A stretch of 64,000 bases of DNA from Eledone cirrhosa (Eukaryota), in assembly GCA_964016885.1 (NCBI GenBank), contig OZ024742.1, forward strand, positions 248,434,001 to 248,498,000, in the 5' to 3' direction. The translations under genes and the position numbers were made by a program. Numbering within the stretch: the stretch's first letter is position 1; the number at the start of each line of letters is the position of its first letter. The notes under the pieces are model-generated. The model worked only from the letters and a program-made list of their open reading frames with translations, searched no databases and had not been told where the DNA came from. Below, piece by piece: positions 878 to 37,658 of this stretch.

Positions 878-1178
878 ATATATATAAGAAGAAATTGAAA
901 GATGGTTAGAAAAGTTCCATGTATTTTATTATGCTCACAAGTGTCTTTTTTAAGCTTCATATCATGTCTCCCTATTTTATCTGATGAGAACGCAAATATC
1001 GTCCCTGGATGATATTTGTTTTTGAAATGCGCATAATAAAATACATGGAACTTTTCTAACCATCTTTTAATTTCTTCTTATATATACTCCAGTCCAATAA
1101 ACTGTTGAGTGCTACTTATCCGATATTTGCATTGCTTTATTGTGCTACAATAAAACTCACCTCCGACACACACAAATA
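878..1178 (+). mobile_element. Fold-back mini-element: inverted arm 878-934, HHR, matching arm 1031-1086, tail
   Basis: tataagaagaaattgaaagatggttagaaaagttccatgtattttattatgc is nearly the exact reverse complement of 1031-1084. Confidence 0.8.
973..1043 (+). ncRNA. Type I minimal hammerhead ribozyme motif
   Basis: tattttat-CTGATGA-gaacgcaaatatcgtcc/ggatgatatttgttttt-GAAA-tgcgca-TA-ataaaata. Confidence 0.8.
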
Positions 1179-1186
1179 TATATATA

Positions 1187-1299
1187 TAACAAAGGAATTG
1201 TGGTAAGGAACCAAATGGACCATAACGCACCAGAGTACTCAATACTTAGGGTATTAGAGTGGGAAATAGGAAAACGTATGACCCCGACGGCAGAGCTCA
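1187..1299 (-). mobile_element. Family A partial copy
   Basis: Tail plus part of one arm. Confidence 0.8.
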
Positions 1300-1494
1300 A
1301 TGTATATATATATATATATATATATACATTATCACTGATGAGGGACTCATTTTATAACATGTTATCCATGTGCAACCATGCAGTATTCTGCTCCCCATTT
1401 TTTCATATATATATATATATATATATATATATATATATATATATACATATATATATATATATATATATATATATATATATATGTATATTTATAT

Positions 1495-1699
1495 ACTGAA
1501 GTAAAAATTAAGTGGCAATATCCAAGAGTATGAGCACTCAGTACATTGGACCAGTTTAGTATAAATATTACAACAGTGACATGAACAGGCACTCAAGTTT
1601 CGTTGGGTTCTGGCCATCGTTGTTTTCCATTTTTCTCGAGACAGGCTGAAGAAATTGGGGCCCAGAACCCAACGAAACTTGTGTACTTGTTTATGTCTC
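1495..1699 (-). mobile_element. Fold-back mini-element, family B
   Basis: gacatgaacaggcactcaagtttcgttgggttctggcc / ggcccagaacccaacgaaacttgtgtacttgtttatgtc. Confidence 0.7.
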
Positions 1700-2126
1700 A
1701 CACACACACTCTCTCTCACACACACACACATATATATATATTGGGAAAATAATTGTTTCTACCTTTGGTACATGGTCACCAAGTATCCCAGTGTATTACT
1801 GGTACTTTATTTTATCGAACCCGTAAGGATGAAAGAGCAAAATAATAACAGCAAAACATCTTTTTAAATTTCCGGTTTCAGCTGATAATTGTTTCAGTTT
1901 CTTCATGCTACAGGAAATATGATAAAAAGTATATAATAAAATTAAGATGTATATTAATAAGAAGAGTGTATTAGAGAACATAGTTTTCATATGTATAAAA
2001 CAAGTTCACATTTTCGTTTGTCTCTTTCTCTCTCTCTGTCTCCTCCTTGCTGGCTTGGTGGTAGTAGCAGCTACAATACAAGTTGGCATGTTCCCTGTTA
2101 CTGTTTGACTGGCTGTTGACTACAAT

Positions 2127-2298
2127 TGTAGTAGAAATAGTAGTAGTAGTAGTAGTAGTAGTAGTAGTAGTAGTAGTAGTAGTAGTAGTAGTAGTAGTAG
2201 TAGTAGTAGTAGTAGTTGTTGTAGAAGAAGAAGAAGAAGAAGAAGAAGAAGAAGAAGAAGAAGAAGAAGAAGAAGAAGAAGAAGAAGAAGAAGAAGAA
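2127..2298. repeat. Compound (GTA)n(GAA)n microsatellite
   Basis: Direct reading. Confidence 0.95.
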
Positions 2299-33727: not shown

Positions 33728-33912
33728 TAATCGTTTCTAGTGTTGGCACAAGATCATCAATTACTCCAGTGCATTATTGGTACCTTATTTTATCGACCCC
33801 ATAACGATGAAAGGCAAAGATAACCTCGGCGGGAGTTGAACTCAGAACGTAAAGGGCCATAACTCTTTGCTGCAAAGCATGGTATCTAACGTTCTACCGA
33901 TACTGCGAATCC
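33728..33912 (-). mobile_element. tRNA-derived SINE, same family (3' fragments also at ~1770-1835 and ~56730-56790)
   Basis: ttttatcgacccc..gatgaaaggcaaag..cctcggcgggagttgaactcag. Confidence 0.8.
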
Positions 33913-34124
33913 TAGCAGAAACACCATACGTTGTGCTAACATCTACTATATATGTGAGTGTGTATGTCCCAATGGGATCTTTTAGATTGTTGGTGTGTGT
34001 GATTCTTTCTGTTCACGCTTCATATCTCTCTCTCTCTCTCTCTCTCTCTCTCTCTCTATATATATATATATATATATATATATATATATATATATATATA
34101 TATATATATATATATGAATATATG

Positions 34125-34440
34125 GATGGGAAAGACATCTCTGGAGGAGAAGGTCACTCTTATATAAAACCTGCGACATTATTGGCCTCCAATGATGTCG
34201 GCCAGTTCTTCTTTCGGGAAAAATGTATTAGATGTTCAGAGAGTGTGATTGGCCCCTTGCAAAGCCTTTCATCACTTAAAAAAGCTTCAATCACAGGCAT
34301 CGTTAGATATATAACAATATTTAACATGCATTGCTGACCATACGCAACTCCCTAGCAGGTCTAAAAAGCCACGTCCGAGATTCTTATGCTTAAGTATCAA
34401 TCGATGACATTACTCGAAATCGAGTGGCATCCATCATAAT
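34125..34440 (+). mobile_element. Possible RTE C-terminal remnant
   Basis: AGLKSHVR-like terminal motif; heavily decayed. Confidence 0.35.
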
Positions 34441-36158
34441 GTATGTTTGTATGTATCAATGCATGTATGGATGTATATATGGATGTATGTATGGATGTAT
34501 CTTTGTATGTATGTATGAATGTCTGTATGTATGAATGTGTGTATGTATATATGTATGTATGCATGTATGCATGTATGTATGTATGGATAGATGGATGGAG
34601 GAATGGCTGGATGAATGTATGTATGTGTGTTTGAATGTATGTATGTATGGATGGATGGATGGATGGATGAGTGGGTGGATGGATAAATGTATGAGTACAT
34701 ATATGTATGTATAGATGGATTGATAAATGTATATATGTATATATGTATGTATGCATGAATGTATGTATATATATATATATATGTATGTATGTATTTATGT
34801 ATGTATGTAAGAATGGATGTTTGACAAAATGAGTTGATCGATGAAGTTCATATTTTTAGATGGTGTCAGGTTGCACACATCACCATTTATCCTCTACCAA
34901 CACGGTCATCTAACTATTTGTAAAATGTTAATGCCATACCATGTTGTAGTGTTCAACCAGTTAATTGCAAGTGGCTTCATTAAAATTTAATTACAAGTCA
35001 CGTTAATTGGAATATTATGAAATGTTTAAAACGGCGTTAATGGACAAACAATTGACAAACAAACTGAATTTGCCCAAGGAAAACTTACTTTTCACTTCAT
35101 CTATTCTCTTCACCTTGTCCCTTTCTTTATGCTTCTCTCCTCTTTTTTCATTTAATTATCATTCTTCTTTCTCCTAGTTTACTTTTTCTTCATTTCTATT
35201 CTAACTGTCTCTCATTTCACCTCACTTTCTTATCTCTCTGTCTCTTTTCTCCCTCGCCGTTCCTTCTTCTCATTTCGTCATCTCTTTTCTCGTCCTCTCT
35301 TCTCCCATTGTCTTTCCTTTCTTTTTCGTATATTTTCATCTCTTTTTAGACGACTATTCCTCCTCTACCATCACTTCTCCTCACCTTCTTTTCACATGTA
35401 TCTCCACCCCCCCCCCCTCAGAATCCCCCTAACACTTCGAATCGCTCCGTCTTCAATTATGTTTCTCTACCTACCTTTCCCTGTCAATTTCTTTCTTTCA
35501 CTCTTTCCATCTTTCTTTCTTTCTTTCTTTCTTTCTTTCTTTCTTTCTTTCTTTTTTACTTTCTTTCCTTCTTTCTTTCTTCCTTTCTCTCTCTCTCTCT
35601 CTCTCTCTCTCTCTCTTTCTCTCTCTCTATACGCACCCCTCCCTAACAATATATAACAACATCTGACAAATTCTGCTTCCATTTATTCTCCAGTATCTCT
35701 TCGTCACATTCCCACCACTTTCGACACATTAGCCAACGATCTAAACCGCTCACTCTTACTTGACTGCATTTCCCACTCCTACAGACGCATATAAACATTC
35801 ATATACACACACATACACATACACGCACACACACACACACACACACACACACACACACACACACACACACACACACACACACACATACACACACACATAC
35901 ATGCACATGCACGCACACACGCACACACACAAAGACAAATACTCGCTTTCTCTCTCGCTCTCTGTCTCTGTCTGTCTCTCTCTCTCTCACTATATATATA
36001 CATATATATATTTATCCCTCTCAAAGTGTGTTATAGATACATCTCGATAAAATGAACAACAACTATACCTCCCCTTTTTAACACATTGACACATATTTCT
36101 CGGGGACTAGCGTATTTAATAATCTAAACCCTAGGACATAACTGGTATTATTTTAGTC

Positions 36159-36352
36159 GGCAGCGGTGGATTGGCAGTGTCGGTAGAGGGTCGGACGCCA
36201 TGCTTTGACGTATAGAGTTACGGCCCTTGCCATTCTGAGTTCAAATCCCGCCGAGGTTAACTTTGCTTTCATCCTTACGGGGTCGATAAGATAAAGTACC
36301 AGTAATGTACTGGTTTAATTACTAGCCTTGTGCCAAAAGTAGAAACAATTAT
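36159..36352 (+). mobile_element. tRNA-derived SINE, same family
   Basis: gagttcaaatcccgccgagg..tcatccttacggggtcgataagataaagtaccag. Confidence 0.85.
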
Positions 36353-37442
36353 TTTACTCAGCAGCAATTTCGCAATTTATTTCGTCCTTCATTTTAAAGA
36401 AGAACGAGTAGCCCAGTCAGAGGACATAGAAGATTACTGGAAATACAAATATAATTTGAATAATTTAGTTTTAATAACTCCGAATAAGAAAGAGTAACAA
36501 GCAAATCGCAATGTTATATAGCTTGAAGTTTGGCTTTAAATCTCATTTCATACCAAAAAAGCATCAATCATGCATTTTTGTAAAGGCGTCCAATGTTATC
36601 CAGTCAATGATATTGCGTTATTTTATTTTATTTTATTTTTTTGTAGTACCCATTGTTCATAAGTTTATGTAAAGTCGGATGGTCATAGAGAGAACGTTAT
36701 AATGTTTGGCACCAACACAAATCTCAGGTGTATGGGTGAGATTTAAATAATATTTTGACATGACAAAATTAACAGCCAAACATCTCTGTTTAAAAGATAG
36801 GGAAAGACACTTCAGAAATTCTGGCAATATAACTGTTTAAAATCGAAATATTGGATGGTCATAGCTCGAATGTCATTGAACAAAGGTTTCCTGGAAATGA
36901 GCTGATTTGTCATCGAAAATCAGCAATAACGGTATAGTCTGCATGGTAGTACGTGTTACTAGAAATAGCAGATAAGACTCTCTCTTTCTCTCGCTCTCTC
37001 AAATCGCACAGAGAGCCAAGGAACACCCGCACATACATACACAATAAAATAGTCCCGTTGACACAAGCCAACGACTTTGAGAGGGATTATACTCCACTTA
37101 TATGTTTATATTCTACTAAATATATGAGCGCAATGCTCACTATATTATGTAATGTATAGGCAATTCATGTATAAACTATAAGCAAAATATTTCTGGGAAT
37201 ATTTCAAGTTGTAGAATGGTCAGGGAGCACATTCAATTAAATGGTCTGTAGTAGCACCGCCGCATATTCGGGGGCAAACAAATTTCATTGTCACATATGA
37301 GTTAGCAGCACTATATTAGGTATGGGAGCAGTAGTTAAATAGTCACGATTACACTAGAAGTGTTGTCCTAGACGTGAGAGGATTAATCAAGAGCATTTAT
37401 ATATATATATGACAGGTAACAATGTTTTGAAACAGCGTGTGA

Positions 37443-37658
37443 GTTTGAAATTAGAAATAGGACCTTTCACCGTATTTTTTACTAAAGAAATTTTAGCCTT
37501 GTATTGGTGTTTAGAACCCTCAAAGAAATCGAAAAAAGATGAATATCGACGTGAATACTCATCTTTTTTACATTTCTTAGAAGGTTCTCAACACCAATAT
37601 CAGGCTAACATTTCTGTAGTAAAACACATGGCGAAAGTTTCTATTTCTAACTTATAAA
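37443..37658. repeat. Imperfect palindrome (~100-bp arms) abutting (TA)n
   Basis: ttagccttgtattggtgtttagaacc / ggttctcaacaccaatatcaggctaa. Confidence 0.75.

What the first reader, a model, noticed from the sequence alone, without database searches (positions are those of the whole stretch)
878..37658. Many different fold-back 'palindrome + tail' mini-elements; several turn at hammerhead stem II
Seen: about a dozen different sequences share one design, with an imperfect palindrome abutting (TA)n on one side and usually an unpaired 35-90 nt tail on the other (878, 1495/14680, 3243, 3464/25450, 9886, 13552, 17539, 23632, 27450, 37443; 16158 is a palindrome whose tail I did not define). In families A, B, C and 17539 the centre reads TTTC-hairpin-GAAA; in B and C a palindromic hexamer follows (GAAA-cttaag-TA at 14807; GAAA-caattg-TT at 23779). 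That is the 3' half of an HHR mirrored onto itself, with CUGANGA absent. Inference: PLE cDNA snaps back at the stem II hairpin to prime second-strand synthesis, producing MITE-like retro-products that annotators could mislabel as DNA transposons.
Basis: partly seen in the sequence, partly recalled or inferred. Interest (0 to 1): 0.75.

Follow-up and report, generated by a model that had tools for sequence, protein, structure and literature searches.

The report
Head-to-head Penelope ends, likely twin-primed
These palindromes are pairs of short, front-truncated ends of Penelope-type retrotransposons and of non-coding tandem units with the same layout, joined head to head in TA repeats (a known layout); they were likely made by copying one RNA from both cut DNA strands, not by a copy folding back on its ribozyme hairpin.

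Summary
All 13 palindromes are real (17 local inverted repeats in the window, 0 in each of 20 shuffles). They belong to ten repeat families. Four families link to Penelope-like (PLE) RT/GIY-YIG ORFs. Two carry complete hammerheads with no ORF found. Four are non-coding tandem units: two with hammerheads, one with a tRNA-like head, one with neither seen. Across 195 head-to-head pairs from six families, 189 join a tailed arm to a tailless arm, and 177 junctions are distinct. The tailless arm reaches further 5' in 52 pairs and the tailed arm in 55. Snap-back of a tailed first strand cannot give the 52. Both arms end inside stem II in 56 of 76 family-A pairs but in only 12 of 119 others, and 95 of those 119 keep the CUGANGA-type core. 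Arm ends pile up at an initiator-like site instead. Best reading: the PLE enzyme primes both strands of a (TA)n target at two fixed start sites on one RNA, copies towards its 5' end, and the two cDNAs are end-joined. The layout is published; I found this mechanism for it in no paper. This scan reached the same reading before, on this genome and others.

The parts
879..1164 (.). Family E pair: tailless arm 879-934 (-), tailed arm 932-1164 (+) with a complete type I hammerhead motif at 974-1042 (CTGATGA 981, GAAA-TGCGCA-TA). No ORF parent found.
1495..1697 (.). Family B pair: tailed arm 1495-1613 (-), tailless arm 1613-1697 (+). The tailless arm reaches about 48 nt further 5' and holds a hammerhead motif (CTGAAGA...GAAAC). 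PLE ORF upstream in 1 locus.
3047..3419 (.). Family G: palindrome 3243-3419 with a long tail 3047-3242. It derives from a roughly 300-nt non-coding tandem unit that carries a hammerhead motif in other copies (L349, L369); the joint here is not at the hammerhead.
3466..3659 (.). Family A pair: tailed arm 3466-3603 (-), tailless arm 3603-3659 (+), joined at the family's pile-up site (TTT|AGTCCAG in the parent). The parent is a PLE with an RT + GIY-YIG ORF.
9874..10289 (.). Family F pair: tailless arm 9874-10048 (-), tailed arm 10055-10289 (+). Each arm has a complete hammerhead motif, and the joint is about 60 nt upstream of the core. No ORF parent found.
13553..13783 (.). Family I: palindrome 13553-13733 with a tail to about 13783; short form of the 472-nt hammerhead-bearing tandem unit at 43064-44295.
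14683..14841 (.). Family B pair, both arms ending inside stem II (1 of 21 family-B pairs do so).
16157..16490 (.). Diverged relative of family H: palindrome 16157-16404, tail to about 16490.
17541..17757 (.). Family D pair: tailless arm to about 17618 (-), tailed arm 17615-17757 (+), with the degenerate core CAGAAGA. The parent PLE ORF begins about 45 nt after the tail end.
23642..23825 (.). Family C pair: tailed arm 23642-23768 (-), tailless arm 23769-23825 (+). The parent has a minimal hammerhead, and a PLE ORF lies upstream in 8 loci.
25451..25641 (.). Family A pair, opposite orientation to 3466.
27334..27555 (.). Family H: tail about 27334-27454, palindrome 27455-27555. Derives from a non-coding unit that is tandem in L372; no hammerhead seen.
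37412..37653 (.). Family J: tail 37412-37447, palindrome 37448-37653. Derives from a roughly 260-nt tandem unit with a tRNA-like head (Rfam tRNA 39.9 bits in L414).
42695..44295 (.). Hammerhead motif at 43473-43517, mirrored at 42981 (-).

Best explanation
Each element is one insertion made of two 5'-truncated copies of a PLE end repeat (or of a non-coding tandem unit with the same layout) joined head to head in (TA)n, likely made when the PLE enzyme nicks both strands and reverse-transcribes one RNA from two fixed start sites. Shown: head-to-head geometry, two fixed outer ends per family whose interval is the tail, a copy-specific joint, arms that each hold sequence the other lacks, and PLE ORF parents for four families. 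Inferred: a dimeric RT/GIY-YIG protein primes the outer start site on one strand and the inner start site on the other. Both cDNAs run towards the RNA 5' end. That end is likely a Pol II start inside the pLTR, so most arms are 50-250 nt long. The two cDNA 3' ends are then joined by microhomology or with a short insert, and repair fills in the rest. The hammerhead is a passenger in the pLTR, and the stubs are likely dead ends because they lack the RNA downstream of the tail.
For: Two outer ends per family, as nt after GAAA: A 42/119, B 38/112, C 46-49/115, D 49/135, E 62/142; F ends at 92 and beyond 167 on its own scale. 189 of 195 pairs are tail+tailless, 5 tail+tail and 1 tailless+tailless. 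The tailless arm reaches at least 8 nt further 5' in 52 pairs and the tailed arm in 55; at 50 nt or more the counts are 12 and 17. 177 of 195 junctions are distinct: 86 overlaps, 73 inserts, 17 blunt, 19 long gaps. A TA run lies on both sides in 153 of 195. One template: arms disagree at 88 of 1326 common-variant site-pairs against 403 expected (sites are linked), and 36 rare alleles are mirrored against a shuffle mean of 4.6, maximum 15 of 500. In 8 of 11 family-A pairs with a long arm the partner is long too (my count from the list), against 4 of 107 unbiased arms being long. Inner ends within 4 nt of one site: A 51/107, C 22/78, D 30/109, E 25/86, F 12/69. A G precedes that site in 29 of 118 arms ending there against 1 of 91 read-through arms, as a capped RNA would give. 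A PLE ORF lies upstream for A, B, C and D and just after the tail for A and D. In vitro a PLE protein cleaves and extends both strands, starts at two internal sites whose interval is the tail, is predicted to be a dimer, and needs no hammerhead cleavage (PMC11167929).
Against: No intermediate or RNA end was observed. The start-site reading rests on a modal position chosen from the same data and on an initiator consensus that is recalled, apart from TCACT, which PMC3846280 names. Many of the 29 G's could come from the partner arm; only three single arms (L125, L292, L308) show the G next to a TA run. [quoted passage not shown] Mirrored alleles also fit snap-back or later arm-to-arm conversion. 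Two sites show tailed-versus-tailless discordance (A31, D25). I attribute that to query selection of recurrent mutations, but two RNAs are not excluded. Later deletions at palindrome centres could shorten either arm. E, F, G, H, I and J have no ORF parent in my sample, so their mobilisation by PLE protein is inferred from layout only.
Confidence: 0.68

Rival explanations
1. Self-priming (snap-back): the first cDNA folds on itself, at stem II or another hairpin, and copies itself back to a fixed stop. This is the first reader's model; PMC3846280 proposes self-priming on an antisense template.
For: The two arms share alleles. A few joints sit on native self-complementary bits: E stem II in 2 of 30, C stem III in 1 of 27, D in 2 of 23. 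56 of 76 family-A pairs end inside stem II.
Against: 52 of 189 pairs have a tailless arm longer at the 5' end, symmetric with 55 the other way, which copying a tailed first strand cannot give. A tailless first strand cannot give the tail. Only 12 of 119 non-A pairs end in stem II, and 95 of 119 keep the core in at least one arm. Families H and J show the same layout with no hammerhead seen.
Confidence: 0.1
2. Twin priming as in the best explanation, but on two separate RNA molecules from the same pool.
For: At two young variants the tailed arm's allele is almost never mirrored: 0 of 14 pairs at A31 and 1 of 14 at D25. L004 has a fragment of a related sequence at the joint. Long arms sometimes pair with arms that stop at the pile-up site (L011, L043).
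Against: Rare alleles are mirrored about 8-fold over shuffles, long arms pair with long arms, and the A31/D25 pairs were nearly all fetched with a query carrying that allele.
Confidence: 0.15
3. Fixed palindromic mini-elements that move as units: MITEs of a TA-specific DDE transposase, or Crypton-like hairpin-tail elements.
For: High copy number, TA flanks and fixed outer ends. A few joints recur (one family-A joint 5 times).
Against: 177 of 195 junctions are distinct, arm lengths run continuously from about 40 nt to over 1 kb into a PLE ORF, the ends are asymmetric, and many single arms exist.
Confidence: 0.04

Closest known systems
Insertion unit of endonuclease-bearing Penelope-like elements: inverted 5'-truncated pLTR head to head, with an optional 30-40-bp tail on one side (PMC3846280 and PMC8557442, passages read)
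   Same: Head-to-head inverted pLTRs, a one-sided tail, microsatellite/AT-rich targets, an initiator-like TCACT in the pLTR, and a hammerhead in the pLTR.
   Different: Here most insertions are reduced to two 50-250-nt stubs, and tails are about 35-200 nt. PMC3846280 explains the inversion by self-priming and PMC8557442 explains the tail by endonuclease resolution; the population data here favour priming on both strands.
Poseidon of Anolis carolinensis in vitro (PMC11167929; abstract, main text and start of methods read)
   Same: Two internal RT start sites bounding the tail, both strands cut and extended, AT-rich target, hammerhead cleavage not required.
   Different: The text I read does not derive the head-to-head product or the joint. 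The ORFs here carry a CxC...CPLxxxC motif before GIY-YIG, which PMC8557442 assigns to the Neptune/Nematis clades; the clade was not tested by a tree.
Minimal PLE hammerheads and non-LTR retrozymes (PMC4209133 passages; bioRxiv 10.64898/2026.07.22.740005, first fifth read)
   Same: Type I hammerheads with a palindromic helix III, pairs of motifs 100-700 bp apart on opposite strands, and non-coding tandem units with a hammerhead (families G, I).
   Different: Families A and D have non-canonical cores. H has no hammerhead that I could find, and J has a tRNA-like head instead.
MITEs of TIR/DDE transposons (definition from PMC8969392 passages)
   Same: Short, non-coding, inverted repeat, high copy, TA flanks.
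   Different: No symmetric termini, no constant interior, and the parents encode RT + GIY-YIG.

Membership tests
EN+ Penelope-like element (families A-D) | [quoted passage not shown] | tested here: met
   RT (RDDGL) and GIY-YIG-like motifs read in parent ORFs; 455 homologues, many about 700 aa with both domains; same-strand ORF upstream in A 5 loci (4 places), B 1, C 8, D 5. Pfam gave no hit for 7 parent ORF pieces, so the label rests on motifs and recalled knowledge.
EN+ Penelope-like element (families A-D) | pLTR made by partial tandem, with the tail continuing into the ORF 5' region | tested here: met
   For A (2 loci) and D (19 loci, some overlapping, fetched with the post-tail sequence) the tail runs on into the ORF start. 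Not seen for B or C.
EN+ Penelope-like element | Hammerhead motif in the pLTR | tested here: inconclusive
   Full motifs by pattern and fold in B, C, E, F, G, I; non-canonical cores in A and D; no Rfam hammerhead at gathering score in 10 loci; cleavage not tested.
EN+ Penelope-like element | Inverted 5'-truncated copy with a one-sided tail, in AT-rich/microsatellite targets | tested here: met
   189 of 195 pairs tail+tailless; TA runs on both sides in 153 of 195.
EN+ Penelope-like element (families E-J) | Coding parent | tested here: inconclusive
   No ORF link in the loci held; the ORF beside family E in L253 ends in another repeat. The sample is about 2 Mb of 3 Gb.
Non-LTR retrozyme (G, I) | Non-coding tandem monomers with a type I hammerhead | tested here: met
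   472-nt tandem at 43064-44295 with a motif at 43480 (one unit passed the scan); G monomer with a motif.
Non-LTR retrozyme (G, I) | Self-cleaving, circular RNA | not testable with these tools
   No RNA data laid.
MITE | Symmetric TIRs at both termini and a constant interior | tested here: not met
   One-sided tail; 177 distinct junctions in 195 pairs.
MITE | DDE transposase parent and a superfamily TSD | tested here: not met
   The parents found are RT-encoding; a TSD cannot be resolved inside (TA)n.
SINE (family J) | tRNA-derived Pol III head | tested here: met
   Rfam tRNA 39.9 bits (gathering 29) in L414; the same head in L056 and L411. The unit is tandem and has PLE-type ends, unlike a LINE-mobilised SINE.

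The most novel reading that the evidence does not exclude
PLEs integrate by symmetric twin TPRT: one dimer uses two start sites on one capped RNA, primes both target strands, and leaves two cDNAs to be end-joined. The long-known inverted pLTR and one-sided tail would then be the default product of the reaction, not of self-priming. The same machinery would move non-coding tandem units, including a tRNA-headed one with no ribozyme seen (family J), that is, a PLE-dependent SINE.
Probability: 0.5. Interest if true: 0.62.

Novelty: new member of a known kind. Interest (0 to 1): 0.38.

Why it matters
How PLEs make their inverted repeats and one-sided tail is an open point: PMC3846280 proposes self-priming and calls for experiments, PMC8557442 calls the cycle undefined, and PMC11167929 leaves the steps after priming unvalidated. 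This genome holds a very large natural sample (22 pairs of six families in a random 1 Mb, so tens of thousands genome-wide by extrapolation). Arm geometry in that sample separates the models, and a two-marked-RNA assay would settle it. For annotation, these stubs look like TA-MITEs or miRNA hairpins but are retro-products. The layout itself is not new.

Tried and rejected
Crypton/Eulor 'hairpin-tail' lead (recalled): dropped once PLE ORF parents and variable joints appeared. My early argument that an unmirrored variant refutes self-copying was withdrawn: the variant is nearly confined to copies fetched with a query that carries it. Rfam scan of the window: the 150 rows shown were sub-threshold, mostly miRNA models on microsatellites, and 222 rows were not shown. 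Rfam gathering on 10 loci found only the tRNA. Pfam on parent ORFs and homologues and PDB sequence search gave nothing useful. The repeat finder was swamped by (TA)n. Sequencing-run search: no RNA holder listed, so no reads were laid. The family-F GAAA was first misplaced by 22 nt; the stem II count was corrected from 0 to 3 of 18. An apparent family-I ORF link was a low-complexity false arm. Rows dropped before counts: loci overlapping the window or each other (10 loci) and pairs split by a (TA)6 run. Families G-J were inspected but not included in the 195-pair counts. Arm ends are BLAST alignment ends against one copy per family, good to a few nt.
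Full report
Observation. All 13 cited sites fold as long imperfect hairpins beside (TA)n and are significant local inverted repeats. The masked window holds 17 such repeats, and each of 20 shuffles holds none. The TTTC...GAAA centres and the two hexamers are as described. The statement that CUGANGA is absent holds only for some copies: 878, 1495 and 9886 contain whole hammerhead motifs. 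The window lies in a 3.0-Gb genome. I sampled 100 evenly spaced 10-kb stretches, 30 loci from each of ten family searches and 20 further stretches.

Parents. Family A (3464, 25450): three of 30 copies did not turn back at the centre, and two ran on into shared parent sequence. One of these reached a reverse-transcriptase ORF, and L034 shows the RT thumb followed by a GIY-YIG-like domain. With homologues of the family-D ORF as probes, a same-strand PLE ORF lies upstream of the arm in 5 A loci (4 places), 1 B, 8 C and 5 D. It begins just downstream of the tail in 2 A and 19 D loci (the D loci were fetched for that and some overlap). Pfam names none of these proteins, so the PLE label rests on motifs (DIVDFYPS, RDDGL, C-terminal GIY-YIG with an upstream Cys motif) and on recalled knowledge. 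E (878) and F (9886) carry complete hammerheads but no ORF link was found. G (3243), H (16158, 27450), I (13552) and J (37443) come from non-coding tandem units. G and I have hammerheads, and the long form of I sits in this window at 42695-44295. J has a tRNA-like head. H has neither, as far as I could see.

Anatomy of the population. Each of the six families analysed has two outer ends, and their interval is the tail. Of 195 head-to-head pairs, 189 combine one tailed and one tailless arm, 5 have two tails and 1 has none. 177 junctions are distinct: 86 show overlap, 73 a short insert, 17 are blunt and 19 have long gaps. 153 pairs have TA runs on both sides. Arm length runs continuously from tens of bases to more than 1 kb. 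So the palindrome is built anew at each insertion and is not a unit that moves.

Test of snap-back. If a tailed first strand folded back and copied itself, the tailless arm could never hold 5' sequence absent from the tailed arm. It does so by at least 8 nt in 52 of 189 pairs, and the reverse holds in 55. At 20 nt the counts are 27 and 28, at 50 nt 12 and 17. After dropping pairs picked by queries that covered the inner end, they are 40 and 30 of 131. A tailless first strand cannot supply the tail. Both inner ends fall inside stem II in 56 of 76 A pairs, but in 1 of 21 B, 2 of 27 C, 3 of 23 D, 3 of 30 E and 3 of 18 F; 95 of the 119 non-A pairs keep the core in at least one arm. A handful of joints use native palindromes, including stem II of E (2 of 30); these fit either model.

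What fixes the turn. Inner ends pile up within 4 nt of one position: A 51 of 107, C 22 of 78, D 30 of 109, E 25 of 86, F 12 of 69, with few ends 5-40 nt beyond it. The parent reads TT|AGT there in A and D, TC|ACT in F and TC|ATA in E. These resemble a Pol II initiator (consensus recalled; PMC3846280 names TCACT in a rotifer pLTR). A G precedes the site in 29 of 118 arms that end there and in 1 of 91 that read through. That is what copying a cap would leave, though many of the G's could come from the partner arm. No RNA end was observed, so this step is inferred.

One template or two. Arms of a pair disagree at 88 of 1326 common-variant site-pairs against 403 expected (linked sites). 36 rare alleles are mirrored against 4.6 in shuffles, maximum 15 of 500. 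Long arms tend to pair with long arms: 8 of 11 in A by my count, while 4 of 107 unbiased arms are long. Against this, two variants are almost never mirrored (0 of 14 and 1 of 14). These pairs were nearly all fetched with a query carrying the variant, so recurrent later mutation can explain them. One RNA is favoured, not shown.

Mechanism. PMC11167929 (abstract, main text and start of methods read) reports that a purified PLE protein cleaves and extends both strands of AT-rich DNA. It starts at two internal sites whose interval is the tail, is predicted to be a dimer, needs RNA downstream of those sites, and does not need hammerhead cleavage. Putting this with the geometry above, I infer that one start site is primed on each strand of a cut (TA)n, that both cDNAs run towards the RNA 5' end, and that they are end-joined. 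The paper found no strand difference in start site, so the strict tail+tailless pairing is an added inference.

Comparison and novelty. The layout is published: inverted 5'-truncated pLTR, head to head, with a tail on one side (PMC3846280, passages; PMC8557442, passages; PMC8969392, passages). Opposite-strand hammerhead pairs and palindromic helix III are in PMC4209133 (passages). My paper searches found no paper deriving the structure from priming on both strands, and no PLE-moved tRNA-headed unit in the listings. The library lacks most subscription papers, and I saw no supplements. Earlier AI notes of this scan reached the same reading on this and other genomes. I had noted my reading before looking, and they are not independent support.

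Verdict. A real and abundant feature, of a known kind. Its mechanism is contradicted as the general route. The value lies in the population evidence on an open mechanistic question. Interest 0.38.

Noticed in passing
window 37412-37653; L414:235-305 (-), L056, L411, L413: Family J is a roughly 260-nt tandem unit with a tRNA-derived head (A and B boxes; Rfam tRNA above gathering score) and PLE-type ends, with no hammerhead seen. Several arms stop within the last 10 nt of the tRNA-like part. Candidate Pol III unit moved by PLE protein; no coding parent found.
   Followed up: partly
window 42695-44295: Long head-to-head insertion of a 472-nt hammerhead-bearing tandem unit (retrozyme-like); related sequence in 34 other loci held, several with head-to-head joints at varied positions.
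   Followed up: partly
   Followed up: partly
window 7239-7889 (-) and 52752-53276 (+): Fragments of PLE ORFs (C-terminal part, GIY-YIG region) by tblastn.
   Followed up: no
window 4626-4720 (-), related to 7850-7899 and 42193-42247: Another hammerhead-bearing end (core at 4707 on the minus strand) beside (TA)n, a further family.
   Followed up: no
window 925-1299 and 5815-6187: Local 375-nt duplication at 98.9% identity spanning a family-E arm and a family-A arm.
   Followed up: no
window 24181-24364, 33727-33912, 36165-36350, 1746-1845; L011: Very abundant repeat that looks by eye like a tRNA-derived SINE; in L011 it occurs in tandem and inverted copies.
   Followed up: no
window 1495-1560, 3500-3545, 23660-23710, 10215-10235: Tails of families A, B, C, E and F share a short motif (TGAGTGCT/TGAGTACT in PLE sense) near the tail end, seen by eye; a possible protein-binding or start-site signal.
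   Followed up: no
L004 (family A joint): About 80 nt of a diverged relative of family A inserted between the two arms, suggesting a template jump at the joint.
   Followed up: no
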